Virus record (IMG/VR): IMGVR_UViG_3300045391_005035
DNA: 64,000 bases
Reading direction: 5' to 3' (one strand)
Source of the DNA: a virus
Made by a program: the position numbers and the translations under genes. Positions 9,799-36,832 of this stretch are shown here, in pieces. Under the pieces are notes generated by a model, which did no database searches, was not told the DNA's origin, and saw only the letters and a list, made by a program, of their open reading frames with translations. Every line of letters begins with the position of its first letter. The stretch's first letter is position 1.

Positions 9799-10107
9799 TC
9801 AGATCACGACGAGCGTGGAGCCGAGCCCGGCCGCCGGCACGAGTCGCCCTCGAAGCATCATGCGCCGATCGGCGCGCACGGCGAGGCCTGCGCCAGGGTT
9901 CACGAACCCGCCGAGTCCGTCGTCCGGGCAGCCGAGCGGAAAGGGGAGCGGTGCGTAGTTGCCGATCGCGCGACCGCCTCGCGCGTTGTACGCGACCGTC
10001 TCGTTCGGAATGATGGTCCTGAGCTGACGCGCCCAGACGCTGTGCGCATTCGCGAAGCGACGCATCGGCTGCGTGCCGGGGAGGACCTTGGCGACGTGGT
10101 AGCTCAT
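9799..10107 (-). CDS. Small putative virion protein (MSY start, GLG motifs)
   Basis: MSYH...IIPN...DGLGG...AGLGS. Confidence 0.6.
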   Translation of the reverse strand: MSYHVAKVLPGTQPMRRFANAHSVWARQLRTIIPNETVAYNARGGRAIGNYAPLPFPLGCPDDGLGGFVNPGAGLAVRADRRMMLRGRLVPAAGLGSTLVVI

Positions 10108-10982
10108 GAACGAATCCTACCCTTCTTCCGGCTGGTTCGCCGCTTCTTGCGGCTCGTTCGCTTGTTCGGGGCGACACGGCGATGCTTCATCGACGCGCTC
10201 CGTTGCGACGTAGACAGCGACGTGCGCTTCGATGGCGTTGCGGCAATCCAGTTGTCGTCGAGCGGCACGATGGTCGTGGACATGTCCTCGTGCAGCGCCG
10301 GAAAATAGAGCGAGTCGATCTCCGCCACGTGACCCACCAGCGCGGGAATCAGCTGGCCCCACCGATCGCGAGCATCGACGAGACGCACGTACACCATCTG
10401 GTAGATCGTGTACCCGTGCGTTTTATCGAAATCCGTCGTCACGTGATCGACAACACCACGTGCCCCCGCCGGAATGGTGCCGGCCAACGATTCGACCGCC
10501 GCCGAGAACTTCACGCGCGTGCCTGGCGCGTAGGTGTGCTGCACCCAGTTTCCATACGCCGCCGACGCCAGCGTCGTACCTGACAGCAGCGGTGCCGGTG
10601 GCACCGGGTTCGGCGTCGTGTGTCGTCCTTTCCACGAACGCTTGAGCGGAACCGTCTGCGGACCCCAGTTGTCGACCAGCGGGCGGAGCGTTGTGTGGGC
10701 GACCTCGTAGTCGACGTCCGCCCACCACTTCTCCTGGTGAGCGCCGAACAGAAGCGGTGTCGCAACTGTCGTTTCGAGCCCGAGGTCACGAGAGCTTCGA
10801 TACAGGCGTCGGACGCGAGCGACGGTGCCAGCCGGCAGGATCATCTCTTCCAGATCGTCACCGACCTTCGTGAAGAACGCGACCGGCTTCAGTAGGCGGA
10901 CCGGCGTATCGACAGCGTAGGTCTTCTCGACCCAGTCGTCCCACGGCGGAATGTAGTGGCCAACCGGCGGCGGCGGGATCAC
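10104..10982 (-). CDS. Two-domain SH3/DUF4314-like protein with basic KRTS tail
   Basis: Two copies of W...TYA.GT.V..PAG..G.V...PL.DNW, separated by TTPN; VAPN-KRTSRKK tail. Confidence 0.65.
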   Translation of the reverse strand: MIPPPPVGHYIPPWDDWVEKTYAVDTPVRLLKPVAFFTKVGDDLEEMILPAGTVARVRRLYRSSRDLGLETTVATPLLFGAHQEKWWADVDYEVAHTTLRPLVDNWGPQTVPLKRSWKGRHTTPNPVPPAPLLSGTTLASAAYGNWVQHTYAPGTRVKFSAAVESLAGTIPAGARGVVDHVTTDFDKTHGYTIYQMVYVRLVDARDRWGQLIPALVGHVAEIDSLYFPALHEDMSTTIVPLDDNWIAATPSKRTSLSTSQRSASMKHRRVAPNKRTSRKKRRTSRKKGRIRS

Positions 10983-12028
10983 AGGAGCCTCCTACGCTTC
11001 AGTTCGTCGTAGATCTCCTGCTGCTCTTCCGGAGACCACTGATCGTCATCGATGTGGATCGACCTTCGCGTCGACGATCCGGTAGCGTAGTCCTCGTTCG
11101 CATCCGACTGCGTATACCATCGGGCCGGACCAGGATAGTCGCTGCCTTCGACGTGGCCGAGTTCTTCCGCGATGATCTTGGCCGCTCGCTGCGCGAACGA
11201 CTCACCCTCGTCTAGGTCGGCTGCGTCGATCTCGATGTCACTCAGCGACTCGTGATCGATCTCCGGGTACACGTCCGGCTCGCTCGCGTGCACCGTCTCG
11301 CTCGTAAACCCGAGCCGACGCGAGCCACCGAGCTGCGCGGCCGCCTCTGGCGCCACTCCACCGCCCACCGTGCCGCCGATGTAGTAGCGACAATCGCGGT
11401 TCGCGCAGTCGCGGTTCCAGATGCCTTCGAAGTAGTCGTGCGAGCCGCAGGACGGACACGTTGCGTTCGGTGCGAGCCTGCGATGCTTCATCGACGACGG
11501 CCGCGTCTGATGCGGAGCCCAGTTGTCATCGAGCGGGACGAGCCACGTCAGAATGTGAGAACCAATCGGCCGCGTCAGCAGGTTCGTGTTCTTGGCGTCG
11601 AGGAGCTTCCACATGTCCTCGATGTCGGCCGCTACCCAGCTCTGGGCTTCTCCAGGAGCCGCATCGGCGACGTACGAATACGAGCGCGCATCAACAACGC
11701 GCACAGTGATCTGCAATGGGTAGTTATACGCATCGTTGCGCGTAACAGCGACCACCGTACCGCGCGTACCGTCGGGAACGAGCGCGGCCACGGTCGACGT
11801 CCGCAGGTCGTGTGGACCACCTGGGTACCACCCCACTCCGCCGCCCCAGAACTTCACTGGCGTCCCAGGGGCGAACGTGCGGCGCGACCACTTCTCCAGG
11901 TCGTCGACGCCGTGGGTAAGGGCCTGCGGCGGCGGAGGGATTGGGTTCTGATGAACGCGCCGGCTCGTTCGCTTCGTCGGATTCTTCGACGTGCGCTTCG
12001 GACGCCGTGATGTACGCCGCTTCGTCAC
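10979..12028 (-). CDS. Multidomain putative cargo protein (basic leader, SH3-like domain, Zn ribbon, acidic domain)
   Basis: KRTS leader-VHQN; third copy of the DNW domain; LAPN-CPSC..CANRDC. Confidence 0.65.
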   Translation of the reverse strand: MTKRRTSRRPKRTSKNPTKRTSRRVHQNPIPPPPQALTHGVDDLEKWSRRTFAPGTPVKFWGGGVGWYPGGPHDLRTSTVAALVPDGTRGTVVAVTRNDAYNYPLQITVRVVDARSYSYVADAAPGEAQSWVAADIEDMWKLLDAKNTNLLTRPIGSHILTWLVPLDDNWAPHQTRPSSMKHRRLAPNATCPSCGSHDYFEGIWNRDCANRDCRYYIGGTVGGGVAPEAAAQLGGSRRLGFTSETVHASEPDVYPEIDHESLSDIEIDAADLDEGESFAQRAAKIIAEELGHVEGSDYPGPARWYTQSDANEDYATGSSTRRSIHIDDDQWSPEEQQEIYDELKRRRLL

Positions 12029-12621
12029 CAGTCCTCGTCGCCGCGGTCCCGCTCGGACCACTCCATGTAGCGTTCGTCCTCGTTCCAGTGCTCGTAGGGG
12101 CGCATCATGCGCGCTCCCAGCTCGCCCAGCAGCTCTTCGACGACCTGCATGCGCAGCCCGGTGTCATCGCCGTGCTTCTTGTCGTTCTGGTAGAACTCGT
12201 CCGTGAACTTCTGATGCTGTTCGAGCACCTCGGAGGGCCACTGTCGCTGCGGCTTGTTCAGGACGTTCTCGTCGAACGGCGCGCCTTGGCCGATCTGTTC
12301 CTGAACCCACAGGCCGAGCTTCTCGTCGGCGTAGTCGGCCGCGCGATCGGCCATCGCGTCGGCTTCTGCCTCGCGGTCCTCGTCTGACCTGAACGAACGC
12401 TCTTCGAGCTTCGAGTTCAGGTCGTTCCATTCGCTCGCGAGCTTGTCGATCATCTCGCGACGAATCTTCGCCCTCAGGTCGTTCTCGTCCTCGGGCTCGC
12501 GATCGTCGCTGTACGACCAGCCGCGCGTCGGGGCTCGGTAGTTGCTCCGCAGTGATGCTCCCGGGGAACGCTTGCTCGTTCGGCGCTTGCTCGACTTCTT
12601 CTTGCTCGTTCGCTTCGTCAT
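12025..12621 (-). CDS. Basic-leader acidic protein (putative cargo)
   Basis: MTKRTSKKKSSKRRTSKR...LRSN followed by an acidic helical body. Confidence 0.65.
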   Translation of the reverse strand: MTKRTSKKKSSKRRTSKRSPGASLRSNYRAPTRGWSYSDDREPEDENDLRAKIRREMIDKLASEWNDLNSKLEERSFRSDEDREAEADAMADRAADYADEKLGLWVQEQIGQGAPFDENVLNKPQRQWPSEVLEQHQKFTDEFYQNDKKHGDDTGLRMQVVEELLGELGARMMRPYEHWNEDERYMEWSERDRGDEDW

Positions 12622-12624
12622 TGG

Positions 12625-12861
12625 TCAGCGTCTCCTTTTCGACGAGCGCTTGCGCGATGTTTTCAGCAGGCGGTACGCGCGCACGATGAGACTGCCAGCG
12701 GTGCGAGCCTTCCGCGAATCCACCGGACTGGCCACGCTAGCCGCGGCGTACAGTTCGTCCCACGCCTTCACGAGATGAAGACTGGCCGCGTTGATGTGCT
12801 CCTGGGTGTCGCGAGAGACGGTACGCGGCCCAGCGGCCTTTCGACTCGTTCGCTTCGTCAT
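12625..12861 (-). CDS. Small basic protein
   Basis: MTKRTSRK...KTSRKRSSKRRR. Confidence 0.6.
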   Translation of the reverse strand: MTKRTSRKAAGPRTVSRDTQEHINAASLHLVKAWDELYAAASVASPVDSRKARTAGSLIVRAYRLLKTSRKRSSKRRR

Positions 12862-13790
12862 GCGGCCGCTCCTTCGTTCGCCGGCAGACCTGCGCGGCGT
12901 AGCGCGTCCTCGACACGGTACACGATGCGTCCGTGCGCACCGTATCGCCGCGCAACCACCGGCCACTCGCCGTCCCAGTCGATGAGCGTCGACTCGCCAG
13001 ATCGCTTGCCGCTCTCGGCGCCGTCGACCATCGCCGAGCAGATGTCGGCCTTCCGATCGAGCGCTGAACCGTGCGACACATAGAGACCGGGCGGGAGGTG
13101 TCCGAGCGCCCGCCGGGCACCTCCGGGCAGTCGCTGTGGCAGCTCCTGCTCGCGCGCGATTTTCACCGCAGCCATGACGCGCTTGCCCGTGGCTTCCGAT
13201 GTCTCCACCGTGCCGCTCTCGATGTCCTCGACCGCTTCCTCTGCGTCGTCGGGCTCCGGCTCCACTGCCGGCGTCTTCGCCTCGAAGCGACTGCCGAAGC
13301 CGGCTGGCGGCATCGCCGCGTACGTTCGGATGGGCGCCGTCGCGATAGGCGCCGGCGCAATCCTACGGCGCAGGCTGCCCTCGATAATGCGGCTCGTCTC
13401 GCGCACACGGTTCTCCGCGGCGAGCATGCGGTGCTCCAGCTCACGTACTTCCGTCGCGAGCCAGACAGCTCGCGGATCCGCGCACATGCTCAGGTACTCT
13501 GGCGCGTCGATCATCGCCTCGCTGACGAGCACGTCGGCGACCGCCCGGCGAAGCTCGGCAGTGAGCGGAAGCGTGTCGATGTCGACTCCGGCCGCCGTCG
13601 CGAGCGCGGTGAGCGCCTCGGGCAGCGGCACCTCCGAGAGCGTGACCGCGAAGAAAACGCCTTCGTCGTACCCGAACAGACGATCGAAGAAACGGAGCTT
13701 GCGACCCACGTACCGCAGGGTGATTGCTCCGGTACTCCTGTCCTGGCTCTGCCTGATGTCGACGCGCGAGAGGTAGGTGAGGCGGCTCAT
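12858..13790 (-). CDS. Hypothetical protein
   Basis: GGAGG RBS before MSRLTY; coupled to the next gene. Confidence 0.65.
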   Translation of the reverse strand: MSRLTYLSRVDIRQSQDRSTGAITLRYVGRKLRFFDRLFGYDEGVFFAVTLSEVPLPEALTALATAAGVDIDTLPLTAELRRAVADVLVSEAMIDAPEYLSMCADPRAVWLATEVRELEHRMLAAENRVRETSRIIEGSLRRRIAPAPIATAPIRTYAAMPPAGFGSRFEAKTPAVEPEPDDAEEAVEDIESGTVETSEATGKRVMAAVKIAREQELPQRLPGGARRALGHLPPGLYVSHGSALDRKADICSAMVDGAESGKRSGESTLIDWDGEWPVVARRYGAHGRIVYRVEDALRRAGLPANEGAAA

Positions 13791-13940: not shown

Positions 13941-14627
13941 TCATGCGGTGATGCGACTCAGGATTGTCTGGAGGATGCGCTGGTCCATGTTGTAGCCGGA
14001 GAACTCGGCCGACATCATGCGCACGTCGAACGGCGGCTCGCGCAGGACCTGCACCGTCAGCTCGATCGCGTCGCCGCTCATCGCGTACGAAGCGAACCCT
14101 TCGCCGAGCGGGTTGTTGGTCCCCGAGAACGGGAACGCGGTGCCCTGGCCAGGCACCGGCGGCACGGACAGCCCGGCGGCGCCCTGCGAGGGCTTGTAGT
14201 TGATGACCTGGCCACGCGCCGTGACGTTCGTGACCATGTCGTACGGCGAGCGGTTGCCTACCTTCACCTCGAAGCCGAAGTAGCTCGCCACGCGCGCCGC
14301 CGGCACCTCGGTGATGTCCTCCACTCCGATGCCGGACTGCTGGTACACCTTGAACCCGAAGTTCTTGATGAGGAACGCCTGGTTCTGCGGCACGACCAGC
14401 TTCACAACCGGCAGCGGCACCGGGAACGGGGGCAGGTTGCCGACGAATAGCGGCTTCGGATAGTTCCGAAAGAAGATCCTGTTGAGGAAGACGGTCGACT
14501 TCGCTGGCAGGAACTGCCAGAAGCCGTTGACAATCTGCGCGGTGACGACGGGCCTGCTGACCTCTCCTTGAGGGAGAGGCGCCGGCGGCAGGTCCTGCCG
14601 AGCACCACGTCGCATGGAGCCGTTCAC
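13941..14627 (-). CDS. Putative jelly-roll capsid-associated protein 3
   Basis: Beta-rich alternating strands (VKLVVPQNQAFLIKNFGFKVY, IELTVQV, SAEFSGY); directly downstream of two similar genes. Confidence 0.5.
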   Translation of the reverse strand: MNGSMRRGARQDLPPAPLPQGEVSRPVVTAQIVNGFWQFLPAKSTVFLNRIFFRNYPKPLFVGNLPPFPVPLPVVKLVVPQNQAFLIKNFGFKVYQQSGIGVEDITEVPAARVASYFGFEVKVGNRSPYDMVTNVTARGQVINYKPSQGAAGLSVPPVPGQGTAFPFSGTNNPLGEGFASYAMSGDAIELTVQVLREPPFDVRMMSAEFSGYNMDQRILQTILSRITA

Positions 14628-14635: not shown

Positions 14636-15574
14636 TCACGTCGCCGGCGACTGCGCCTGGAGGATCTTGTAGCCGAGCATCGTGAAGTAGAGCGTGCCGC
14701 CGATCGCGACGACGGCGCGGCCCACGGTCGGATCGTCGCCCGACGGATCGGGCGGCGGCTGCTGCTGACCCTCGGCGAAGCCGTTGGGCAGCTGCGCGTA
14801 GTTGACCTCGGCGAATCCGAGATCGCGCGTGAGCGTCGCCTTGAACTGGATCACCGCGCTCTGCGAGAAGAAGTCCGAGATGGGCAGGTACAGAGGCCGA
14901 TCGAACTCGCTGAAGATGTAGCGGCTCGGGATCGGAATCTGGTTCTGCCGGTTGCGGTCCACCGACGCATCGTAGATCTCGAAGAGGAAGTCGGCCTCAC
15001 CAGGGCGGAACGTCTGGACCGCCTGCGCGCCCGCGACCGTGATCGGACCCACGCGTGCTCCGATGTACGCGCCCGAGAACGGGTCGGCGGTGCTGGCGAC
15101 CGGACGGAAACGACCAGTGAGCGGCGTGATGACCTCGGTGCCCGCCACCGGGTCGCCCGGACGCCCCTCGTTCTGGCTGCCGTAGGGGCCGACCGAGTAC
15201 GTCTTCATCAGCATCGCGCTGAGGTACGTCGTGCAGACGAACGGGCCGTCCTGCGAGATCGGCTGCGTGTCCTGCATCTGCTTGCCGGCGAGCGTCACCG
15301 ACGGCTGATCCGGACCCGGGATGTTGATCTGGAAGTTCAGGAAGTAGGGCACCCGCTTGCCGGGGATGTCCTCGATGTAGCGGATGCGCTTCGCTGCCTT
15401 CGCGAGCGAGTCGGCGAGGCGACGCAACTCCAGCTTGTTGTCCGCGAACTCGCCCGCCATCTTGCGGTACGCGCGATGCAGCGCTTCGAGCTGCGTGCGC
15501 TGACGAAGCTCGCGGTCCTCCATCTGACGGAGGTAGGCGGAGACCTGCGGGTCGCTTACGAACGGGGGCGGCAT
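14636..15574 (-). CDS. Putative jelly-roll capsid protein 2 with N-terminal coiled coil
   Basis: PYFLNFQINI...ISQDGPFVC...RPLYLP...IQFKAT...LYFTMLGYKI. Confidence 0.55.
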   Translation of the reverse strand: MPPPFVSDPQVSAYLRQMEDRELRQRTQLEALHRAYRKMAGEFADNKLELRRLADSLAKAAKRIRYIEDIPGKRVPYFLNFQINIPGPDQPSVTLAGKQMQDTQPISQDGPFVCTTYLSAMLMKTYSVGPYGSQNEGRPGDPVAGTEVITPLTGRFRPVASTADPFSGAYIGARVGPITVAGAQAVQTFRPGEADFLFEIYDASVDRNRQNQIPIPSRYIFSEFDRPLYLPISDFFSQSAVIQFKATLTRDLGFAEVNYAQLPNGFAEGQQQPPPDPSGDDPTVGRAVVAIGGTLYFTMLGYKILQAQSPAT

Positions 15575-15711: not shown

Positions 15712-16479
15712 TCAGAGAACGTCGCGCGAGTGGATGCCGTCGATCAGGTACTTGATGTCCTTCTCGATGTCGTCCGTGCCGGCGACCGACACGTCGCCGG
15801 TCGAGAGGGCCGTCTGACCCGTGGTGATCGCCGCGAGCGGACCGACGCTGCCGTCGATCAGGCCCAGGAGCTGCTCCTGGATGCTCGCGCCCGGCGCCTG
15901 GCCCATCTGGGCGAGCGTCGCGATGCACTGGAAGCCCTGACGGGGCGGGATGAGGATCGGACGCGCCAGGCGCATCAGCGCCGACGACGTCGGCACGCCG
16001 TTGTTCGCGCGCGGGAGGCGCGAGTCGGCGAAGAAGCCGTCGAGGCCGCCGGCGAACGGCGTGTACGCCGTGAACGTCGTCAGCTGCGGCTTGTCGCCGG
16101 CCTGGAACTGCCAGAACAGCTGGTTCTGGCTCTGGTGGTAGAGCTTGTGGACGCGCATCGTGCGGTCCGGGAACACGCCCGGAACCGAGCCGACGGACTG
16201 CGTCGCGCCGGCGACGGTGTAGGTGGCCTCCGGGTTGAACCGGAAGTAGCACCAGACGCGCACGGCGAGCGTGATGAACGTCTGATCCGACGGGAAGGTG
16301 CCACCCGTCGTGAGGTTGCTGACCGCCAGCTCCGCGCCCGAGCGCAGGAAGAGCTGCACGCGGCTGGAGAGCTGGTTCGCGCCCGGGTTCGCGCGGAGGT
16401 CGACGTGACCGTCCGTGCGGATGAGGCTGTCGTAGAAGGGCTGGTGGACGCGCTCGCGCGTTCCGACGATCTTCGGCAT
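15712..16479 (-). CDS. Putative major capsid protein, single jelly-roll type
   Basis: 255 aa, beta-rich; QPFYD...LF...SNL..GG.FP....F....VRV...RPILIPPRQGFQC...YLIDG; strongly C/G-ending codons; flanked by structured UTRs. Confidence 0.6.
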   Translation of the reverse strand: MPKIVGTRERVHQPFYDSLIRTDGHVDLRANPGANQLSSRVQLFLRSGAELAVSNLTTGGTFPSDQTFITLAVRVWCYFRFNPEATYTVAGATQSVGSVPGVFPDRTMRVHKLYHQSQNQLFWQFQAGDKPQLTTFTAYTPFAGGLDGFFADSRLPRANNGVPTSSALMRLARPILIPPRQGFQCIATLAQMGQAPGASIQEQLLGLIDGSVGPLAAITTGQTALSTGDVSVAGTDDIEKDIKYLIDGIHSRDVL

Positions 16480-16672: not shown

Positions 16673-17389
16673 TCAGCTCCCACCCGCACTGAAGATGTTG
16701 CGAGCGTAGATGCCTCCGGCCCAGCCGCGATCGCGTGGCGAGCCCATCGTCTCCGTCACCGGGATGAACGCCCTCTTGCGGATCGCAGGCAGAGCCATGT
16801 CGATCGGCTCGACGGTCGAGATCGCCTCGACCGCAGAGAGAGCATCGTCCGCGTCGTCGACGCCGAGCATGCCCTTGTACGGCGCACCCGCGTGGCTCAC
16901 GTCGACCATCAGACCACCACCGAGCGACGAGCGCTGGTAGTACCCGCTCAGCACGTTCGCCGGCGGGGGCGTCGCAGCCGATGCGTTCGCCGCATCGACC
17001 GGGAGCATCGAGGAAGGAATCAGGGGCAGCAGTCCGGCGACGCCGGCGCCAGCGGCGACGGTCATCTGCGTCTCGGGGGAGAGCCCGAGCGAGTCACCGA
17101 ACATGTACGCGCCGTACGCGGCTGCCGACGAGGCGACGGCCGCGATCAGCCGGCGGTCCTGCCCAGGCAGGATCATCGGGCCGACCTTCGAGCCGAGCCA
17201 CTGCGTGAGCAGCACGCCGCCCGTCGCGCCGAGCGCCGGGAACACGATCTTCTCCATCACGTCGATGCCGCCGAGCGTCGCGTTGCGCGCGAGACGACGC
17301 AGGGCACCACGAGCGTTCGTGAGCAGCACGTACCGGTTGCGACGTACCTTGCGGCGGCCGCTCCTGCTCGTGCGCTTCTTCTTGCTCAT
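16673..17389 (-). CDS. Basic-N-terminus 3-TM virion membrane protein, paralogue of the 17436-19742 C-terminal half
   Basis: VRRNRYVLLTN vs MKRNRYVLMRN; EPIDMA...GGIYARNIF vs QPIDMA...GGIFARSIF. Confidence 0.7.
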   Translation of the reverse strand: MSKKKRTSRSGRRKVRRNRYVLLTNARGALRRLARNATLGGIDVMEKIVFPALGATGGVLLTQWLGSKVGPMILPGQDRRLIAAVASSAAAYGAYMFGDSLGLSPETQMTVAAGAGVAGLLPLIPSSMLPVDAANASAATPPPANVLSGYYQRSSLGGGLMVDVSHAGAPYKGMLGVDDADDALSAVEAISTVEPIDMALPAIRKRAFIPVTETMGSPRDRGWAGGIYARNIFSAGGS

Positions 17390-20411: not shown

Positions 20412-20414
20412 GAC

Positions 20415-22079: not shown

Positions 22080-22081
22080 GA

Positions 22082-25707: not shown

Positions 25708-25743
25708 GTTCTTCCTCAACCCTCGCGGCTCATGCCGCTGTGA

Positions 25744-26385: not shown

Positions 26386-26396
26386 GTTCCTTCTCT

Positions 26397-26777: not shown

Positions 26778-26779
26778 GA

Positions 26780-28122: not shown

Positions 28123-28133
28123 GGCCGTTCCTC

Positions 28134-28433: not shown

Positions 28434-28437
28434 CGAG

Positions 28438-28695
28438 TCACTCCTCGTTCTTCTTCAGCTTCGCCTGCATCGGACGCCACCAGGCGAAGTAGGCCCACGC
28501 GGCTCCGACGACCGCCGCGCCAGCCCCGAAGCAGACGAGCGGTCGTCGGTAGAACGGCACGGCCTCCACCTGGCCGAGAGGCGGGAGCCCATAGAGCGGA
28601 TACGCTGGCATGCCCTCGGTGGGCACCGCACCTCCGCTCATCTCGGACGCCTGCTGCTCGTACTGCTGCGGCTGGACGTACTGATCGAAACGCAT
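28438..28695 (-). CDS. Small virion membrane protein
   Basis: PPLGQ; TM; LKKN. Confidence 0.65.
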   Translation of the reverse strand: MRFDQYVQPQQYEQQASEMSGGAVPTEGMPAYPLYGLPPLGQVEAVPFYRRPLVCFGAGAAVVGAAWAYFAWWRPMQAKLKKNEE

Positions 28696-28722: not shown

Positions 28723-29130
28723 TCAGCGGCTGTGGCGCCGACGCGAGTGGCGGCGGTTCTTGCTCACGCGACGACGGCTGCGACGACGACCGTTCTTGCT
28801 CACGCGACGACGGCTGCGACGACGACCGTTCTTGCTCACGCGCTTCTTCGAGTGGCGCTTGCCCTTCGACGTGCGCTTCTTCGAGTGGCGCTTGCGCGAC
28901 GTGCGCTTCTTCGACACGCGACCCACCGAGAACATCTTGCTGCCACGCTTGATGCTCACGTGCTTGCTGCCGCGCTTGATGAGACCACGCGCCTTGCGAC
29001 GCGCTGCACCGAGCTTCGACGAGCGCGCGACCACGCGGTGCGTCTTGCCGCTCAGGATCGCGAACAGCTTGCTGTCGAGCTTGCTGCGCGAGTGCTTCTT
29101 CCGGCTCTTCCGCTTCGTTCCCATGATCAC
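28723..29130 (-). CDS. Protamine-like DNA-condensing protein
   Basis: Extremely R/K/S-rich; 3x RVSKN. Confidence 0.75.
   Translation of the reverse strand: MIMGTKRKSRKKHSRSKLDSKLFAILSGKTHRVVARSSKLGAARRKARGLIKRGSKHVSIKRGSKMFSVGRVSKKRTSRKRHSKKRTSKGKRHSKKRVSKNGRRRSRRRVSKNGRRRSRRRVSKNRRHSRRRHSR
28756..28842. repeat. Coding 36-bp tandem repeat (about 2.4 copies) encoding RVSKNGRRRSRR
   Basis: GTTCTTGCTCACGCG recurs at 28756, 28792 and 28828. Confidence 0.85.
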
Positions 29131-30536
29131 TTCACTCCCATGTTGCGCGCGAACTTTCGCGCGTGCCTCTTCACGTTTCGCTGCACCGATCTGCCCTGCT
29201 TAGTCTGCGTGAGGAAGTAGTACCCCACACCTACGGCCGCAGCGCCGAGTAGAAGATTCCGACCCATGCTGGCCGTCGGCGCCGCTTCTGGCGTCGCGAC
29301 CTGTCCCATGCCCAGCGCCGCCGGGCTACTGACGAGCGCCGCGACGTCGGCCTGCGCCGCGTTCTTGTTGCCGGCGATCGGCGCAACATGTGCGACGACT
29401 GCCTGCTGAAGCACGCCAGAGTTCGCGCGCAGCTTCTCGCCCATCTTGTCGATGCGCGGCAGACCCGAGCGGCCCTTCGCGCGATCGGCCATGTCCTTCA
29501 TGGTCGCGTGCATCACGCAGTGTGCGAGCGTGTCTTCGAGCGCAGTGTCTGGACGATAGCCCATCGCGACGAGGCGCTCGGATACCTGGCGGCACTTCGC
29601 CGCCTGTCCCGCGCCGAGCGCTTCTGTCGCCTGCGTGAGGAACGACGAGCGTACCGTCGGGTTCGAGATCATGCGGGCCTCGTCGACGACGGCCTTGGCC
29701 GCCGCACGTCCGAACGCCTCGATGTGCGAACGCGGCCCGGTTCTCTCTGGGCGCATGCTCGGCATCTGCTGATCGACGAATGGAGACGACGTCGGCTTGA
29801 GGTCTCGCACGTTGCGCGCGAACGTGACGCCGCCGCCGGATGGCTGCACGACACGCCAGTTGTTCGCGACCGAGTCCCACATCTGCGACTGCTGCACGTC
29901 CAGCTCGCCCTCCTGGGCGATGTACGCGGGCAGCGCGTAGTCGTTGGCGAAGGATCCGTCGCGCGGATTCCACACGACGCCCTCTTCCATGTCGAAGATG
30001 CCGGTGCCGATCACGTTCTGCGGATCATCGTCGTACTCGAACGAGCCGCGGTCGTAGATCGTCGCCGGATCGACGCCAGCGTTCGACGGCATGCGGTTCC
30101 GCTGCGGATGACGCGACGCCGGACGCACCGGCTGCGGCGAGCCGCTGACTCGGATGGCGATCTCCTGCGCTGGCGACGCGCCCGATGCGGGGTCGTCTCC
30201 AGAGAGATCCGTGCGCATCGAGGCGGGGCGGTAGCCGCCGCCTCCTCCGACCTTCCACGGATACGAGCCGTACTCCGTCTCGGACATCCCAGGATCGTCC
30301 TCGGTCGAGTCCGTCAGGTCGAACTCCGACATGCCGTCCACGTCCGATGCCGGGCCCGCGCCAGATCCCGGCGTCGACGGCGTGTCCTCCTGAAGCTCGT
30401 CGTCGAGGAACGACGAGTCGGGATCGCCGGGCAGACGCTGGTAGTCCTGCACGTCGAGATTCGCGTTTCCACGCATCGTCGGCATGTCCAGATCGCCTGC
30501 ACCGTCATCGAGATCGAAGTCGAAATCGCTCATCAC
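29127..30536 (-). CDS. Virion membrane protein with acidic disordered N-terminus
   Basis: Asp-rich N-terminus; helical domain related to the next two genes; ALGMGQ; TM; VQRN...FARN. Confidence 0.7.
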   Translation of the reverse strand: MMSDFDFDLDDGAGDLDMPTMRGNANLDVQDYQRLPGDPDSSFLDDELQEDTPSTPGSGAGPASDVDGMSEFDLTDSTEDDPGMSETEYGSYPWKVGGGGGYRPASMRTDLSGDDPASGASPAQEIAIRVSGSPQPVRPASRHPQRNRMPSNAGVDPATIYDRGSFEYDDDPQNVIGTGIFDMEEGVVWNPRDGSFANDYALPAYIAQEGELDVQQSQMWDSVANNWRVVQPSGGGVTFARNVRDLKPTSSPFVDQQMPSMRPERTGPRSHIEAFGRAAAKAVVDEARMISNPTVRSSFLTQATEALGAGQAAKCRQVSERLVAMGYRPDTALEDTLAHCVMHATMKDMADRAKGRSGLPRIDKMGEKLRANSGVLQQAVVAHVAPIAGNKNAAQADVAALVSSPAALGMGQVATPEAAPTASMGRNLLLGAAAVGVGYYFLTQTKQGRSVQRNVKRHARKFARNMGVK

Positions 30537-30561: not shown

Positions 30562-31278
30562 TCAGTCGAGTACCATCCACGCAGCGCCGAGCACCGTCAG
30601 CAGGATAGCGCCGCCGACAGCCACCGTCTGAAACCGATGCTTCCGCGATGCCGCCTCGGCGGCCGCCTGCTGACTCGCGGCCACTTGCTGTGCCGCGGCG
30701 AGCTGCGCCTGTGCTCGCGCCGCCGCCGTCGCAGCATCGCGCGCTTCCTTACCACAGTCGAGCACCTGACCGGCAACGGTGCTGCCGATGCTCGTGACGA
30801 GGCCGACGATCTGCCCGTACACCGGAACGACCTGCGCCACGCCGCCGACCATGTTGGCTCCGGATGCGATCATGCATCCAGTCGCGCGATCGTCCGCGCC
30901 GCTACCGAGACCCACGTCGACCAACGAATCCCACCCGCTGCGCGTCGCAATGTTGTGCCTGATGTTTTCGAGGCTTCGATCGAGGCGCGTGTTCGCAATC
31001 GCAAGGCGCAGAGCATCGAACGCAACCTGATCGGGATTCGCGCCGGACACCAGGCCCTTCTTCATCTCCATGAGCACAGGCGCCGATGGCACTTCCAGCT
31101 CATCGAGCGACGATTCCATCACCTGTAGCCGACGCTCGCTAGGCACCTTCGCCATCGCGAGCATGATCGACGACGCATCCAACGACGCCTTGGCCAGCAC
31201 CGGATCGCTGAACGCGCGCTTCCCCACGCCAACGGGCGTGACGTCGCCGAGCGCTCGCGATGCCGACGCGTAGCTCAT
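30562..31278 (-). CDS. Virion membrane protein, paralogue of 31275-32027
   Basis: MSYASASRALG; ASSIMLAMAKVP..DQVAFDALRLAIA; VGLGS; C-terminal TM. Confidence 0.7.
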   Translation of the reverse strand: MSYASASRALGDVTPVGVGKRAFSDPVLAKASLDASSIMLAMAKVPSERRLQVMESSLDELEVPSAPVLMEMKKGLVSGANPDQVAFDALRLAIANTRLDRSLENIRHNIATRSGWDSLVDVGLGSGADDRATGCMIASGANMVGGVAQVVPVYGQIVGLVTSIGSTVAGQVLDCGKEARDAATAAARAQAQLAAAQQVAASQQAAAEAASRKHRFQTVAVGGAILLTVLGAAWMVLD

Positions 31279-32027
31279 GCCGCCTTCTTCAACATGGCGT
31301 AACCGATGCCGAGGGCGGCGATCGCGCCTCCGCCGACCAGCACGTAGCGCATGAACCGTGCGTCCGCGGCCTGCTGCATCGCGAGCGCCTGAACGGTGCC
31401 CTGCTGTGCCAGGCGCGCCTGATCGAGCGCCTGCTGTCCGCGGATCACGAGCTGCCCAGCGCCGCAGCCAGCGATCTGGCCAGCCGTCTGGGTACTCGAC
31501 GTGAGCGCTCCGGTGCCAGATCCGGTACCGGTCTGATCGAGCACGCCGCCGATCATGCCGACGGTACCCGCGACGTACGAGCAGAAGATCGCGTTCGCGT
31601 CGTTGATGTTCTGACTGGTGCGGCCCTGAGCCTCGGCGATTGTCTGCCCCAGCCCGGAACCGGCCGGTCGCTGCGCCAACGTCTGCTGCACGAAGTGGTC
31701 GGCGATCGCGGCGCGGATTGCGTCGAACATCGCCTGGTCCACCTTGTTCGCCGGCGCAGTCGCCACCCGTCGAGCGAAGTCGGCGCGGGCAGAATCTCCG
31801 AGTCCACGCTGCACCGCATTGAGGGTGCGCACCATCTCGGCGAGGCGCTGACTGCGCGGCACCGACGCCATCTTCAACATGACGTTGGACGCGAGTAGCG
31901 ATGCGGTCGACAGAATGGGGCTCGACTGAGCCATGGTGCCCAGCTCGATCGGAGCCTGATCCGGCACGACGGACGCACCGAGTCCCATGAGCCCACGTGC
32001 AGCACGGCTGCGCCCTGCGTACGTCAT
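31275..32027 (-). CDS. Virion membrane protein, paralogue of 30562-31278
   Basis: MTY..LMGLG; ASNVMLKMASVP..DQAMFDAIRAAIA; SGLGQ; C-terminal TM. Confidence 0.7.
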   Translation of the reverse strand: MTYAGRSRAARGLMGLGASVVPDQAPIELGTMAQSSPILSTASLLASNVMLKMASVPRSQRLAEMVRTLNAVQRGLGDSARADFARRVATAPANKVDQAMFDAIRAAIADHFVQQTLAQRPAGSGLGQTIAEAQGRTSQNINDANAIFCSYVAGTVGMIGGVLDQTGTGSGTGALTSSTQTAGQIAGCGAGQLVIRGQQALDQARLAQQGTVQALAMQQAADARFMRYVLVGGGAIAALGIGYAMLKKAA

Positions 32028-32349: not shown

Positions 32350-32907
32350 CTACACGGGGAAAAAGGTGTACTGCTGGACGCGAGAGAGCATGTTTGCGGT
32401 CTTGCGGCCCGCGACCGGGTCGAGTGCCCACCACAGGCCGGTGCTCGGGTCCTGCGCCTCGACGAACACATGCGTGTGGATCTTCGGCTCGCCGAACCGG
32501 CGCGGCTTGAAACCGACCGTCACGAACCGGATGGGAGCGCCGATCACGAGGCAGCAGGTGCCGATCCCGAGCGCGAACTCGTCGCAGTCGCAGACGAGCC
32601 GACCCTGCGTCGCGTCCTGGACCATGCGCTCCGGGTCCTTGATCAGCTCCACATGCACCGGGTCGCGCGTGTACCGCCCGTTGTTCCCCCACCACTTCGA
32701 GATGGCGACGCACTCCGACAGGTACGCCTTGGGCCGGATGTTCGCGATGATCTGCTCGGTGTGCCGCCGGACGAAGATCGACCGCTCGCCTCGCTCGCCG
32801 CGAGCCAGCTCGATCATTTTACGGACGGTGTGATCCGTTCCCCGGTACGGCTCCACAGAGCCGATCGCGTTGTTGTACGCGGGGGAGTATGCAGACGCTC
32901 GAAGCAT
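32350..32907 (-). CDS. Transglutaminase-like (papain-fold) Cys-His-Asp enzyme, candidate maturation protease
   Basis: YTRDP...CDCDE...HTHVF...WWALDP. Confidence 0.8.
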   Translation of the reverse strand: MLRASAYSPAYNNAIGSVEPYRGTDHTVRKMIELARGERGERSIFVRRHTEQIIANIRPKAYLSECVAISKWWGNNGRYTRDPVHVELIKDPERMVQDATQGRLVCDCDEFALGIGTCCLVIGAPIRFVTVGFKPRRFGEPKIHTHVFVEAQDPSTGLWWALDPVAGRKTANMLSRVQQYTFFPV

Positions 32908-33315: not shown

Positions 33316-35676
33316 TCAGATCGCTGCGCGCAGAGCTGCCAGCGCTGTGCGAACGAAGCGCTGACCACGCGGCGTCGTGCCAGCGCTGTGCGGCTCTGCC
33401 TGCTGGATGTTCGCGATCACCTGCTCGTCGGTCATGCCGGCGATCGCCTGGATGATCATCGGCGGCACGCCGCTGCTGAGCATCTTCTGGACGAACTCCT
33501 CTGGCTCGTCACCACTCTCGACGCTCTCGTGGACGCGCTTGGCGACTTCCTTGGCGATCATCATCTGGAGCTTCGGATCCACGGCACCACCCTGCGGCTG
33601 AGGCTGAGCTTGTGATCTACCACGAGGCTGAGCCTGCTGTGGAGCCTGCTGTGGAGCCTGCTGTGGAGCCTGCGTCGTCGTAGCAGGCGCCGGGGCTGCA
33701 TCGGTGGGAAGGGGCGGCTGCACCGGCTCGCCCCACGGGCGCGGCTTCGGCAGCCCAACGCTCATGTCCGGAACCGGAAGTCCAGACGACGGCTTGGGAC
33801 GAGCCGTGCGCGGCTCACCGAGGATGCCTCGCGGCTTCGCGCTGCTGCGCGAGGTGCGCTGCTGCGCCTGGAACGCGTCGAACTGATCCTTCGGTGCGAG
33901 CGCGAGCTGGCCGTTGGGAGCCTGCACGACCACCATCGGCCCCTGCGGCGTCTGGACGATCTGCCCTGGCTGCGGAGGAGGCTGCGAGACCTGCTGTTGT
34001 GGGGGCTGCTGCGGCGCCACCTGCTGTCCCACCTGGGCCCCGCCGTTGATGGTCTGCCAGATCGCGGGCAGGTTTTCGAGCGCGGTGTTGAGGACCTCCT
34101 GCCAGCCCTGCGCTCCGTCGCCGCTGCCCGAGAGGCCGATACCACCTCCGCTGGACGGCGGCGGCGAATCTTCGACGCCGAGCGCGTCCTTCGCGACGCT
34201 CCGCAGATCGCGAAGGCTGGAGAGCTGCTTGACGATGTCGCCGCGATCGGCGAGCTGCGACTCGAACCCGCGCACCTTCGCCTGAAGCTGCTCGATCTCC
34301 GAGCGCTGCCACTGGAGCTGCGACTCGTAGTTCGTCTTCTGCGTCTCGACGCGAGACTCCCACTGGACCTTCAGGTTGATCTCGGCCTGCTCCAGGCGAT
34401 CACGCCACTGCTGATCTCGCTCGTCGGCCTGACGCTTGTACATCTCCATGTCGCGGCGACGCTCCTCACGTTCGACGCGCAGCGCCTCTTCGTGACGCTG
34501 CTCGCGCATGCGCCCCGCTTCGCGCTCCGCTTCGATCTCGCGCCGATTCGCGTCGCGCATCGACTGAATCTCGGAGACGTGAGAGTCGCGCAGCGACTGG
34601 AGCATCGTCTGATTCTGCTTGTGGATGGCCTCGATCTCCGCCTGATGGCGATCGAGGATGTTCCTCGTGATGCCCTCTGCCGACGTGGCGGCGATCCGCG
34701 CTGCCTCCGCAGCAGCAGCACCCCCGTCACCTTTGACCATGGGAATGAGCTTCTCGATCTGGTCGATGACGTTCGGCTGCGGGGCGTTGTTCATAGCTTC
34801 CACCTTCGCTTCGAGGCGACGATATTCTTCCTTCGACTCGCTCAGACGCTGTTCGAGGAACGCGCGTTCGGTGGCGGATCGCTCACGCTCTGCCTTCAGC
34901 ACTTCGTCCGCTCGGCGTCGCTCGGCGTCGACGACTGGATCCATGAACTCGCGCGCCGCCTTCGCGGTCGCGTCGGCCTTGTCCTCGGCGCGGATGCGAT
35001 CTGCGCGCTCACGCTCCGCCGTCGCCTCGACCATCTTCAGTGCCGACGCCGCCAGCGTCGGGTTCTCCGGCGCCTGCATCATCATCGGGGCCTGAGGTAC
35101 GGGTGCGACACCGCTGGCTTGGTCGAGCTTCGCCCGCACCGAGCGCGAAACACGCTCTGGGTTCGGCTCGCCGGCGACTTCGACCTTGAACGAGTCGTAG
35201 CGGCGAACGTTGTTGGGACCCTTGTTCGGGTCCGGCCCCATGACGCGCACCTCGAACGTGCCGCCGCCGTACTCGGAGCTGATGTACTCCTCGGTGATCT
35301 GATGCCTGTAATCGGCCAGGTATCCGTTGCCCTGCACTCCGCCGGGCAGCCACTTCGGGAGCAGGCGGTAGAGCTGGACGCTGAAGTTCGGATCGTCTCC
35401 GACGCGGTACTTCGACAGCACGCTACCGAGCGTGCGCTGACTCTCCGCAGGGCGCGGCAGCTCGCTCGGAAGCAGGTTCGCCGGGTCGTCGTCCGCAGCG
35501 GCCTCCTCGCGAAGCTCGGCGCGATCTTCCTGCGAATCGGCCTCGTCAGATTCGACGTCGATCGACGACGGCAGCGCCTTGGTCGCCTTCCGACGACGCG
35601 CTCGCGGCGGCGGATCGTCGGACGTGAGGTTGTCGATGAACCGGTCGACTTCGCCAGCGAGCTGATCGTCGCTCAC
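33316..35676 (-). CDS. Large coiled-coil protein with Pro/Gln-rich C-terminal linker
   Basis: Long E/R/Q heptad region; 786 aa. Confidence 0.75.
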   Translation of the reverse strand: MSDDQLAGEVDRFIDNLTSDDPPPRARRRKATKALPSSIDVESDEADSQEDRAELREEAAADDDPANLLPSELPRPAESQRTLGSVLSKYRVGDDPNFSVQLYRLLPKWLPGGVQGNGYLADYRHQITEEYISSEYGGGTFEVRVMGPDPNKGPNNVRRYDSFKVEVAGEPNPERVSRSVRAKLDQASGVAPVPQAPMMMQAPENPTLAASALKMVEATAERERADRIRAEDKADATAKAAREFMDPVVDAERRRADEVLKAERERSATERAFLEQRLSESKEEYRRLEAKVEAMNNAPQPNVIDQIEKLIPMVKGDGGAAAAEAARIAATSAEGITRNILDRHQAEIEAIHKQNQTMLQSLRDSHVSEIQSMRDANRREIEAEREAGRMREQRHEEALRVEREERRRDMEMYKRQADERDQQWRDRLEQAEINLKVQWESRVETQKTNYESQLQWQRSEIEQLQAKVRGFESQLADRGDIVKQLSSLRDLRSVAKDALGVEDSPPPSSGGGIGLSGSGDGAQGWQEVLNTALENLPAIWQTINGGAQVGQQVAPQQPPQQQVSQPPPQPGQIVQTPQGPMVVVQAPNGQLALAPKDQFDAFQAQQRTSRSSAKPRGILGEPRTARPKPSSGLPVPDMSVGLPKPRPWGEPVQPPLPTDAAPAPATTTQAPQQAPQQAPQQAQPRGRSQAQPQPQGGAVDPKLQMMIAKEVAKRVHESVESGDEPEEFVQKMLSSGVPPMIIQAIAGMTDEQVIANIQQAEPHSAGTTPRGQRFVRTALAALRAAI

Positions 35677-36293
35677 GGCTGGTCTCCGCCATCCGACCCA
35701 GCCGTCTCGTCGACGTCTGCGGCCTCCTCGCCGACCTCGTCCGCGGCCTGCTCCTCCTCGCCGTCCCCCTCGTCCTCGTCCTCGTCGTCGTCGTCTTCGA
35801 CGCTCTGATCGCCCATGAGAGCGGCCACGAGCTGGTTGTAGGCGAGGGCCATCTCGTTGAACTTCGCCTCCGTGTCCTTGTCACTCGGGTACTTCGTTCC
35901 GAGATGCGAGCCGAGTGCGTAGAGCGCCTGGCCGAGTGCGTTGACCTGATCGGTGCCGACCGCGGCGAACGCTTCACCATCGCTCACTTCGGCGCCGAGC
36001 TTGCGCAGGTGCTTCGCGGTCCACTGCCGCTGCCGCTGAAGCTGCGTCGCATTGCTGACGGCGAGCGTGTGCAAGTCGTACATCGTCGTGCCGAGCATCT
36101 CGACCGCCTGTACGAAGCGCTCCATCAGCGTCAGCGAGATGAACTTCCTGAGCTGATCCGGATTCGAGAAGCTCTTGTCCTTGAGCAGCTTCTTCTGGTC
36201 CGCCTGGAGCATGTTGAGGAACTGCACCAGTGCCGGCGGCAGCTCGATCTCCATCTCCATGTCGGCCGACTCGCTCTGCGTCTCTTCGCTCAT
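35673..36293 (-). CDS. Hypothetical helical protein with acidic tail
   Basis: GAGGGAG RBS before MSEETQ; D/E-rich C-terminus. Confidence 0.7.
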   Translation of the reverse strand: MSEETQSESADMEMEIELPPALVQFLNMLQADQKKLLKDKSFSNPDQLRKFISLTLMERFVQAVEMLGTTMYDLHTLAVSNATQLQRQRQWTAKHLRKLGAEVSDGEAFAAVGTDQVNALGQALYALGSHLGTKYPSDKDTEAKFNEMALAYNQLVAALMGDQSVEDDDDEDEDEGDGEEEQAADEVGEEAADVDETAGSDGGDQP

Positions 36294-36304
36294 GTTCGTC
36301 TCCC

Positions 36305-36832
36305 TCAGAGGTCCTTTTCGCCGTGCTCTTGTGCGTATTCGGCCGCCAGCTCCCGCTGACGACGTCGGAAGTTGCGAATCAGATCGCGGCTCGCCACGTC
36401 GATCGGCCGCCGAGCCGAGCAAGCGAAGACCGCTACCTCACCGATCTCCATCAGCTCCGACGCCGTCGCGAGACGGGTGCAGTAACACCTGATCTGCTTG
36501 GGCTGATCGCCGAAGCCCTTGGTTACGCCTTCGGCCTCGGTGACCCATTCCACGAAGTGCTCGCACGCCGGACGACCCGTCGCCTCGTCTTCGGTGCAAA
36601 TCAGGTTGTCCTTGGTGAGCATCAACGCGGGACCGGGCGGCTCGCCGCCGCCGATCATCACGCCACCGTCCGCAGCCGGGACGACCGGCACGTAGCCCGT
36701 CTCGACGTAGTCGGAGGGACGTGTGGCCATCGGCTTCTGACCGGACGTCGACAGATCTCCCGGCTTCTCCGGATCCGTTCCGCCCCAGGACGGCGCCGCC
36801 TCGTCCCCGAAAATGCCACGCTCGCTCGACAT
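36305..36832 (-). CDS. Cys-containing hypothetical protein, first gene of the leftward arm
   Basis: LIC..ACEH..CYC..AC; TAGAGT -10 box 8 nt upstream. Confidence 0.65.
   Translation of the reverse strand: MSSERGIFGDEAAPSWGGTDPEKPGDLSTSGQKPMATRPSDYVETGYVPVVPAADGGVMIGGGEPPGPALMLTKDNLICTEDEATGRPACEHFVEWVTEAEGVTKGFGDQPKQIRCYCTRLATASELMEIGEVAVFACSARRPIDVASRDLIRNFRRRQRELAAEYAQEHGEKDL

What the first reader, a model, noticed from the sequence alone, without database searches (positions are those of the whole stretch)
9799..36832. Probable very large tailless, membrane-containing virus with single-jelly-roll capsid
Seen: a 27-kb co-oriented block with about 18 small membrane proteins, protamine/H1-like proteins, three beta-rich capsid-sized genes and a transglutaminase-fold enzyme. 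I recognise no terminase, portal, HK97 capsid, tape measure or tail genes. Established: many small membrane proteins plus paired single-jelly-roll capsid proteins characterise Halopanivirales (P23-77, SH1), whose genomes are only tens of kb. Inference: this element is over 64 kb, carries a Caudoviricetes-like early arm, and may be an undescribed large lineage.
Basis: partly seen in the sequence, partly recalled or inferred. Interest (0 to 1): 0.85.

Follow-up and report, generated by a model that had tools for sequence, protein, structure and literature searches.

The report
Large tailless jelly-roll bacterial virus
This 27-kb gene block looks like the particle-building module of an uncultured bacterial virus with a genome of about 150-300 kb. 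The virus has no detectable head, tail or DNA-packaging genes of ordinary phages and probably builds a jelly-roll shell over a membrane and protein-condensed DNA, a design known so far only from much smaller viruses.

Summary
Window 9799-36832 is an unbroken run of about 34 minus-strand genes. It has about 14-15 membrane proteins (8 with a C-terminal helix plus poly-Arg tail), protamine-like proteins, a conserved trio of capsid-sized genes and a transglutaminase-like Cys-His-Asp enzyme.

Near-complete relatives of 123-298 kb, three with circular maps, show no terminase, portal, HK97 or DJR capsid. They also lack any FtsK/HerA/A32 ATPase. One partial relative carries a non-conserved HerA-like gene. 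So kinship with Halopanivirales is not supported. The nearest analogue is SPV1 (Portogloboviridae), which is motor-less and has a nucleoprotein core.

MAG bins hint at Planctomycetota/PVC hosts. I found no publication or cultured relative. This scan reached similar readings before on other DNA (e.g. e1-5595514). All evidence is computational, and no virion, membrane or assembly route has been shown.

The parts
15712..16479 (-). g24, 255 aa. The most conserved protein of the lineage and candidate major shell protein. Its N-terminus (MPK(I/L)...RER.HQPF.D.L.R) is invariant.
14636..15574 (-). g23, 312 aa. N-terminal 54-residue helix, the conserved IEDIPGKRVPY motif, then an eight-stranded jelly roll. 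Candidate second shell, penton or spike-base protein.
13941..14627 (-). g22, 224-228 aa. Third member of the conserved trio; fold not determined.
   Evidence: Homologues sit in the same position in G002, L027, L028, L020 and L023. Only a weak resemblance to the last strands of g23 (hhalign prob 3.7%). No Pfam or PHROG hit.
17436..19742 (-). g26, 768 aa. H1/protamine-like basic N-terminal half, three TM helices and a Gly/acidic repeat tail. Candidate DNA-condensing protein anchored in the membrane.
   Evidence: Composition and TM scan. The C-terminal TM part is conserved next to g24 in distant relatives. No Pfam hit.
16673..17389 (-). g25, 238 aa. Shorter paralogue of g26: basic N-tag, RNRYVL motif, two TM helices, GGI(Y/F)AR.IF end.
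   Evidence: Sequence reading, TM scan, homologue in G002.
20415..21221 (-). g27. Basic N-terminal tag plus a conserved globular domain; a core gene of the module.
   Evidence: Found upstream of g24 in G001-G003 and in L023, L027, L028 and L032. No Pfam hit.
21474..23745 (-). Three proteins with N-terminal KRTSRK-type basic tags (one has a faint HicA-like stretch). Candidate core-associated cargo.
   Evidence: HicA_toxin at only E 0.04.
23749..28695 (-). Array of about 9 small proteins, most with a C-terminal TM helix followed by a poly-Arg/Lys tail. Candidate virion membrane proteins whose tails face the DNA.
   Evidence: Hydropathy and composition scan; no Pfam hits for those scanned.
28723..29130 (-). 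g37, 135 aa, 44% Arg+Lys. Protamine-like candidate DNA-condensing core protein.
29127..30536 (-). g38, 469 aa. Acidic N-terminus, conserved middle and C-terminal TM; a core gene.
   Evidence: 45-50% identity in G001-G003; no Pfam or PHROG hit.
30562..31988 (-). g39 and g40, two similar ~238-aa membrane proteins with a C-terminal anchor.
   Evidence: homologue in G001-G003.
32350..32907 (-). g41, 168-185 aa. Transglutaminase-like (papain-fold) Cys-His-Asp enzyme. Candidate maturation protease or wall peptidase.
   Evidence: Transglut_core E 5e-4 for the window copy; 5 of 18 relatives hit it, best E 2.6e-6; C108/H146/D163 invariant.
33316..36832 (-). First three genes of the arm: a Cys-rich 175-aa protein, an acidic 206-aa protein and a 786-aa coiled-coil/PQ-rich protein. 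Candidate scaffold or size-determining proteins.
   Evidence: Sequence reading. g43 and g44 are conserved in G001-G003. No Pfam or PHROG hit.
9799..13790 (-). Distal genes of the block (g17-g21). g21 is conserved just after the trio. The others carry KRTSRK-type tags at the N- or C-terminus.
9192..9788 (-). g16, a zinc-ribbon plus DnaJ-domain protein just outside the given coordinates. It travels with the module in relatives.
   Evidence: DnaJ E 3e-12; homologues after g21 in L027 and L028.
48367..51444 (+). MoxR-type AAA+ ATPase and DUF2201 metallopeptidase/VWA partner. MoxR is the only non-helicase P-loop ATPase conserved in the lineage.
   Evidence: Pfam and PHROG hits; conserved in G001-G003; P-loop census.

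Best explanation
The block is the late (virion) module of an undescribed lineage of large bacterial viruses. Genomes are about 120-300 kb of dsDNA with circular maps, and hosts are possibly Planctomycetota/PVC.

The likely particle is tailless. An icosahedral shell is built from small jelly-roll proteins (g23 shown; g24 and g22 inferred). Beneath it lies a lipid membrane studded with about 15 small viral membrane proteins, whose poly-Arg tails, together with protamine/H1-like proteins (g37, g26, g25), condense the DNA. The transglutaminase-like cysteine enzyme g41 probably processes virion proteins or cuts the cell wall.

No packaging ATPase of either known kind is conserved in the lineage. 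The genome is therefore most likely condensed by basic proteins and enclosed by membrane and shell, as in SPV1, rather than pumped into a preformed capsid.

Shown here: gene content, conservation, the g23 jelly-roll model, and the absence of detectable hallmark genes.
Inferred: shell role, membrane, tailless shape and the assembly route.

For: (2) The g24-g23-g22 trio, with g27, the g26 C-terminus and g21, is the conserved core down to 22-36% identity and in a 37% GC lineage. The trio has the highest GC3 of the arm, and g24 is the most conserved protein.

(3) Six-frame Pfam searches of five relatives (152-298 kb, CheckV 90-100%) found no Terminase_6N/6C, TerL_ATPase, Terminase_3, Phage_portal, SPP1_portal, Phage_capsid, Gp23, Capsid_NCLDV, Pox_A32 or DUF87. 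FtsK gave only 16 bits inside an SNF2 helicase.

(4) Walker-A census of G001, G002, G003 and the circular 122.7-kb G007c finds only helicases, MoxR, DnaB/DnaC-like and kinase-like proteins.

(5) Few large ORFs: in G002, 12 of at least 500 aa, mostly replication or repair enzymes. This is unlike a 160-kb tailed phage.

(6) Viral character: IMG/VR records; end overlaps of 123-141 bp showing circular maps; endolysin, endonuclease VII, integrase, Mu Gam, ParB and PHROG-matching replication genes.

(7) About 14-15 TM proteins, 8 with TM plus poly-basic tail, and a 44% Arg+Lys protein.

(8) SPV1 has two single jelly-roll capsid proteins, an inner membrane and a nucleoprotein core, and no packaging enzyme is among its nine annotated functions (PMC8459092).

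Against: Absence of hallmark genes rests on Pfam and PHROG profiles and a motif census, which can miss very divergent genes. The window's own 176-kb contig could not be searched beyond the window.

One relative (G006c) does carry a HerA-like ATPase.

No virion, lipid or proteome data exist. No sequence similarity to any solved capsid protein or to SSIP-1 was found.
Confidence: 0.55

Rival explanations
1. It is a virus of this new lineage, but the jelly-roll protein g23 is not the shell. It would be a spike, fibre or membrane-anchoring protein, and the true major capsid protein (perhaps g24) has a fold that is not yet recognised.
For: g23 has a 54-residue N-terminal helix ahead of the jelly roll, as trimeric fibres do. 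BFVD lists uncharacterised proteins of tailed actinophages and an Agrobacterium phage tail fibre among its matches. g24, not g23, is the most conserved and best-expressed-looking gene, and its model is unresolved.
Against: The top solved matches of g23 are shell proteins of membrane-containing tailless viruses. The weak g24 model still ranks jelly-roll capsids first, with no other fold class.
Confidence: 0.2
2. It is a tailed (Caudoviricetes) jumbo phage whose terminase, portal, HK97 capsid and tail genes are too divergent for the profiles used.
For: Several 470-630-aa proteins of G002 have no family hit.
Against: Twelve hallmark profiles were negative in five near-complete relatives. No TerL-like P-loop appears in four complete or near-complete genomes. 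The unannotated 606- and 633-aa ORFs are not conserved across the relatives. There are few large ORFs. The g23 and g24 models give no HK97 match.
Confidence: 0.1
3. It is a true member of Halopanivirales/Helvetiavirae (two vertical single jelly-roll capsid proteins plus an A32-like ATPase) that has grown very large, with the ATPase simply missed.
Against: FtsK, Pox_A32 and DUF87 profiles and the Walker-A census are negative in complete relatives. The HerA-like gene of G006c has no homologue in the window, G001-G003 or G007c. There is no sequence-profile hit to any solved capsid chain. SPV1 scores higher.
Confidence: 0.05
4. It is not a virus but a large circular plasmid-like element, and the block encodes a membrane-associated or secreted apparatus.
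For: No hallmark virion gene is recognised by sequence. A circular map and ParB fit a plasmid. Jelly rolls also occur in cellular proteins (PHM, nucleoplasmin).
Against: No conjugation or secretion ATPase is present. Endolysin, endonuclease VII and Mu Gam are phage-like. The records sit in IMG/VR with CheckV estimates. A strongly conserved trio of small beta-rich proteins next to protamine-like proteins fits a particle better than a plasmid function.
Confidence: 0.07

Closest known systems
Portogloboviridae (Sulfolobus polyhedral virus 1, SPV1; capsid proteins VP4/VP10, PDB 6OJ0)
   Different: SPV1 infects a hyperthermophilic archaeon and has a 20-kb genome, against 120-300 kb here. There is no sequence similarity. 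The core proteins here are protamine/H1-like and partly membrane-anchored. The replication arm, endolysin and integrase are bacterial and phage-like.
Halopanivirales / Sphaerolipoviridae (P23-77 VP16/VP17, SH1 VP4/VP7, HHIV-2, HCIV-1)
   Different: The defining A32-like FtsK/HerA ATPase is not found. Genomes are 5-10 times larger. There is a trio of genes rather than a pair. No sequence-profile similarity.
Salisaeta icosahedral phage 1 (SSIP-1, JN880423)
   Same: A tailless, membrane-containing bacterial virus with a large capsid, a circular 43.8-kb genome and almost no annotated functions. Earlier notes of this scan linked related elements to it.
   Different: Profiles of the g23 and g24 families find nothing in SSIP-1 proteins (best hmmsearch E 0.02 among 57 proteins; hhalign prob <= 3.2%). 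tblastn of g23 and g24 against GenBank phages gives no match.
Adenovirus-type core (protein VII, mu, V, with a cysteine maturation protease)
   Same: Arg-rich core proteins next to capsid genes, and a papain-fold cysteine enzyme in the late block. This comparison is from my own knowledge.
   Different: Adenoviruses have a double jelly-roll hexon and the IVa2 packaging ATPase; neither is detected here. No homology was tested or claimed.

Membership tests
Halopanivirales (Helvetiavirae) | Two adjacent major capsid proteins with a vertical single jelly-roll fold | tested here: inconclusive
   g23 is a jelly roll in a confident model. The g24 model is weak. g22 was not folded. Orientation in the shell cannot be tested.
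Halopanivirales (Helvetiavirae) | FtsK/HerA-superfamily (A32-like) packaging ATPase near the capsid genes | tested here: not met
   No P-loop ATPase in the minus arm. FtsK, Pox_A32 and DUF87 profiles are negative in G001-G005. Walker-A census is negative in G001-G003 and G007c. A lone HerA-like gene in G006c is not conserved.
Halopanivirales (Helvetiavirae) | Sequence or profile similarity to VP16/VP17 or VP4/VP7 | tested here: not met
   hmmsearch of the A2 and A3 profiles against all PDB chain sequences gave no capsid hit at E <= 10.
Portogloboviridae | Single jelly-roll shell proteins resembling VP4/VP10 | tested here: inconclusive
Portogloboviridae | Nucleoprotein core, inner membrane and no packaging ATPase | not testable with these tools
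   Consistent gene content: basic proteins, TM proteins, no conserved motor. No particle data.
Caudoviricetes | Large terminase, portal and HK97-fold capsid protein | tested here: not met
   Terminase_6N/6C, TerL_ATPase, Terminase_3, Phage_portal, SPP1_portal, Phage_capsid and Gp23 are all negative in five relatives. Gp23 also rang in no control genome, so that search is uninformative. Pfam and PHROGs are negative in the window. No HK97 match for the g23 or g24 models. Profile sensitivity is limited.
Bamfordvirae / Tectiliviricetes (double jelly-roll viruses) | [quoted passage not shown] | tested here: not met
   g23 has one barrel of about 240 aa. Capsid_NCLDV is negative. ATPase evidence as above. 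DJR proteins match g23 only over one barrel.
SSIP-1-like phages | Homology to SSIP-1 structural proteins | tested here: inconclusive
   hmmsearch and hhalign against the SSIP-1 proteome gave nothing significant. The targets were single sequences, so remote homology is not excluded.
Transglutaminase-like cysteine peptidases (PF01841) | Cys-His-Asp triad in the core motif order | tested here: met
   C108, H146 and D163 are invariant in 18 sequences. Five of them hit PF01841, best E 2.6e-6. The window copy scores 20.5-20.7 bits against a cut-off of 23.

The most novel reading that the evidence does not exclude
These genomes represent a deep, unclassified lineage (family to realm level) of 120-300 kb bacterial viruses, perhaps infecting Planctomycetota/PVC. 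They would build a very large tailless jelly-roll shell over a membrane and load their DNA without any packaging motor, by condensing it with protamine-like and membrane-anchored basic proteins. This would be an SPV1-like or adenovirus-core-like strategy scaled up about ten-fold and found in Bacteria.
Probability: 0.4. Interest if true: 0.9.

Novelty: new variant of a known kind. Interest (0 to 1): 0.78.

Why it matters
All known large bacterial viruses are tailed and use a terminase-portal motor. Known tailless, membrane-containing prokaryotic viruses have genomes of about 10-45 kb. A widespread lineage of 120-300 kb tailless, apparently motor-less jelly-roll viruses would change three things:
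- It would break the assumed size limit for that architecture.
- It would add a second route to large genomes in bacterial viruses.
- It would make the question of how DNA enters a membrane-lined capsid without an ATPase directly testable.

The lineage has hundreds of protein clusters and occurs in several environments and GC ranges. It would also give Planctomycetota/PVC bacteria a candidate virus group, and it shows that hallmark-gene virus detection misses such elements.

Tried and rejected
- Megablast of the block, and tblastn of g23 and g24, against GenBank phages: no match.
- Pfam and PHROGs on nearly all proteins of the minus arm above 100 aa: only the DnaJ, SLOG, weak PcfJ and Transglut_core hits noted above.
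- hhalign of the g24 profile against g23, and of g22 against g24: no relation. g22 against g23: only prob 3.7%.
- Profiles against PDB sequences: nothing.
- SSIP-1 link suggested by earlier notes: nothing significant.
- Complex prediction for g24 with the g23 barrel: no verdict (score 0.00, controls not run). This counts neither for nor against binding.
- The weak FtsK hit in G003 lies in an SNF2-type helicase and is not a packaging ATPase.
- The 1121-aa P-loop protein next to the AEP primase in G002 reads as a helicase (Walker A, DEDP, TTHA motifs; no Pfam, PHROG or PDB hit).
- The 420-aa P-loop-like ORF of G001 is the DUF2201/VWA protein.
- Promoter and terminator scans around the trio and at the divergent junction: nothing above shuffles.
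- No tRNA in the window.
- The search for related loci with the diverse A2 alignment failed for lack of a conserved stretch.
- Walking along the window's own 176-kb contig failed: products were not on record, or a shorter contig was returned.
- No whole genome is held for the window.
Environment, virome occurrence and Atlas neighbours therefore could not be checked.
- The structure-prediction cap (2 jobs) left g22, g27 and a deeper g24 alignment (A3) unfolded.

Full report
WHAT IS THERE

The window has 64-71% G+C, so raw ORF lists are noisy. I called genes by third-position GC. Two divergent arms meet at about 36.9-37.7 kb.

The minus arm runs from 36832 down past 9799. The finding's coordinates hold about 34 consecutive minus-strand genes, many with 4-base start/stop overlaps.

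The plus arm (37.7-64 kb) is a replication and early arm. It contains:
- a MoxR-type AAA+ ATPase and a DUF2201 metallopeptidase/VWA partner;
- an SSB-like protein;
- an SF2 helicase and an RNase T-like exonuclease;
- an AEP primase.

Several of these match PHROG families of known prokaryotic viruses.

CHECKING THE OBSERVATION

A hydropathy and composition scan finds about 14-15 proteins with membrane helices, not 18.
- Eight have a C-terminal helix followed by a run of Arg/Lys.
- Seven proteins start with a basic KRTSRK-like tag.
- One 135-aa protein is 44% Arg+Lys.
- The 768-aa protein at 17436-19742 has an H1-like basic half, three helices and a Gly/acidic repeat tail, with a short paralogue next door.

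The three capsid-sized genes are real. They have the highest GC3 of the arm (0.96, 0.91, 0.90).

The transglutaminase-like call is borderline for the window copy (E 5e-4). It is backed by the family: 5 of 18 members hit PF01841 (best E 2.6e-6), no other family is hit, and Cys108/His146/Asp163 are invariant.

Nothing in the window matches a terminase, portal, HK97 capsid or tail family in Pfam or PHROGs.

RELATIVES AND THE WHOLE GENOME

The 255-aa protein g24 has 257 homologue clusters, all unnamed. Its own contig is 176,411 bp.

IMG/VR holds relatives on contigs of 139-298 kb. I read three whole:
- G002, 159,872 bp;
- G003, 161,502 bp;
- G001, 152,857 bp.

G002 and G003 end in 127- and 123-bp overlaps, which means circular maps. 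Gene order matches the window.

A distant relative, G007c (g24 at 31-42% identity), is a complete 122.7-kb circle with a 141-bp overlap.

The core shared by all is g27, the g26 C-terminus, g24, g23, g22 and g21 (often with the DnaJ protein g16), together with g38, g40, g41, g43, g46, MoxR/VWA, the helicase and the AEP primase. The trio recurs even at 22-36% identity and in a 37% GC lineage.

No cultured phage in GenBank has g23 or g24.

Eight MAG contigs carry g24. Four are binned to Planctomycetota or Lentisphaerota (Phycisphaeraceae, Planctomycetota, Pirellulales, Lentisphaeraceae). This is a weak host hint.

G002 also encodes an Amidase_2/PG_binding_1 endolysin just downstream of the module. 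It further has endonuclease VII, a tyrosine integrase, Mu Gam, ParB, thymidylate synthase, glycosyltransferases and an intein-bearing SNF2 helicase. This gene content fits a virus of bacteria.

I searched five relatives (CheckV 90-100%) in six frames. There were no hits for Terminase_6N, Terminase_6C, TerL_ATPase, Terminase_3, Phage_portal, SPP1_portal, Phage_capsid, Gp23 or Capsid_NCLDV. The Gp23 search also rang in no control genome, so it carries no weight.

- Pox_A32 and DUF87 gave nothing.
- FtsK gave one 16-bit match inside an SNF2 helicase.
- An independent Walker-A census of G001-G003 and G007c lists only helicases, MoxR, DnaB/DnaC-like and kinase-like proteins.

One partial relative, G006c (106 kb, Planctomycetota MAG), has a 574-aa HerA-like ATPase with two winged-helix domains (DUF87 E 2e-7). 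This gene has no homologue in the window, G001-G003 or G007c, so it is not a core function.

The large unannotated ORFs of G002 (606 and 633 aa) are not conserved across the relatives. ORFs of 500 aa or more are few and are mostly replication enzymes. This does not look like a 160-kb tailed phage.

FOLDS

g23 was predicted with a 28-sequence alignment reaching 23% identity. The model has pLDDT 78.5 and pTM 0.66. It shows a helix at residues 9-62 followed by an eight-stranded sandwich.

An all-against-representatives search ranks the matches as follows:

The second look gives SPV1 8.6, SH1 7.4, HHIV-2 7.1 and D13 7.0. Foldseek also ranks SPV1 first, at E 0.025. BFVD lists SPV1 VP4 at probability 1.00.

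Profiles of g23 and g24 hit no solved protein by sequence. They also hit no SSIP-1 protein.

MECHANISM (INFERRED)

The lineage has no conserved packaging motor. It does have an abundance of protamine-like proteins and membrane proteins with poly-Arg tails. This fits assembly around protein-condensed DNA. The membrane proteins' basic tails would face the genome, and a jelly-roll lattice would form the outside. [quoted passage not shown]

Suggested roles for other genes, all inferred:
- g41 is a plausible maturation protease or wall peptidase.
- g43 and g44 (coiled-coil and acidic) are plausible scaffold or size-setting proteins.
- The conserved MoxR/VWA pair may act as an assembly chaperone.

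From DNA volume alone, a 176-kb genome needs an inner cavity of roughly 85-90 nm. That implies a particle well over 100 nm. This is my own estimate, not a tool result.

COMPARISON AND NOVELTY

The element works most like SPV1, and less like Halopanivirales. It is not a member of either:
- Halopanivirales membership fails on the ATPase and on sequence similarity.
- Portogloboviridae share only a fold-level resemblance and a gene-content analogy.

I found no paper describing such large tailless bacterial viruses.

Earlier follow-ups of this scan reached similar readings on other DNA (e1-5595514, e1-5345316, e1-5325803 and others). I treated those as leads. My own tests agree with the SPV1 analogy. 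For this lineage they do not reproduce the SSIP-1 link.

VERDICT

The most likely reading is the virion module of an undescribed lineage of large, tailless, probably membrane-containing, apparently motor-less jelly-roll viruses of bacteria (confidence 0.55).

The main open points are the folds and roles of g24 and g22, whether a membrane exists, and how the DNA is enclosed.

Noticed in passing
L054:4912-6636 (+), relative G006c, Planctomycetota MAG contig: A 574-aa HerA-like ATPase (DUF87 E 2e-7) with two C-terminal winged-helix repeats, followed by a DUF5131 gene. It is absent from the window, G001-G003 and the circular G007c, so it is an accessory gene in a lineage that otherwise lacks FtsK/HerA ATPases.
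   Followed up: partly
window 15712-16479 (-) and alignment A3: The first ~21 residues of g24 (MPK(I/L)..RER.HQPF.D.L.R) are almost invariant across lineages that share only 31-36% identity overall, including one of 37% GC. This may be an N-terminal arm with a strongly constrained contact or signal.
   Followed up: partly
window 10104-12621, 16673-17389, 20415-23745, 28723-29130 (-): A recurring basic tag of the KRTSRK(K/R) kind sits at the N-terminus (sometimes the C-terminus) of otherwise unrelated proteins. Separately, eight small proteins end in a TM helix plus poly-Arg tail. These may be a core-targeting or DNA-contact signal.
   Followed up: partly
window 48367-51444 (+): The MoxR-type AAA+ ATPase and its DUF2201 HExxH-metallopeptidase/VWA partner are conserved in every complete relative. 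MoxR is the only non-helicase P-loop ATPase of the core. Its role (assembly chaperone?) is unknown.
   Followed up: partly
window 9192-9788 (-): A zinc-ribbon plus DnaJ (J-domain) protein lies just below the block and keeps this position after the g21 homologue in relatives L027 and L028. This suggests recruitment of host Hsp70 for assembly.
   Followed up: no
L017:7265-10486 (G002) and L060:12941-15727 (G007c): Inteins with LAGLIDADG homing endonucleases interrupt the SNF2 helicase of G002 and the DnaB helicase of G007c.
   Followed up: no
L014:12317-13231 (+) in G002: An Amidase_2 plus PG_binding_1 endolysin lies 2 kb downstream of the capsid module in G002. No homologue was found in the window, whose lysis gene remains unidentified.
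   Followed up: no
window 13941-14627 and 14636-15574 (-): g22 and g23 share a faint pattern in their last two strands (...(V/T)(L/T)R ... loop ... GY(N/K)(I/L/M)). hhalign prob is only 3.7%, but they may be very old paralogues.
   Followed up: partly
window 3930-7355 (-): Below the block lie a SLOG/DprA-like protein (YAcAr E 5e-12) and two ~500-aa proteins, one with a weak PcfJ-like hit. PcfJ plus pentapeptide-repeat proteins recur in G002.
   Followed up: no
window 54870-55346 (+): Precomputed Pfam on an identical gene in another assembly (L064) marks this 158-aa protein as a dual-specificity phosphatase (DSPc).
   Followed up: no
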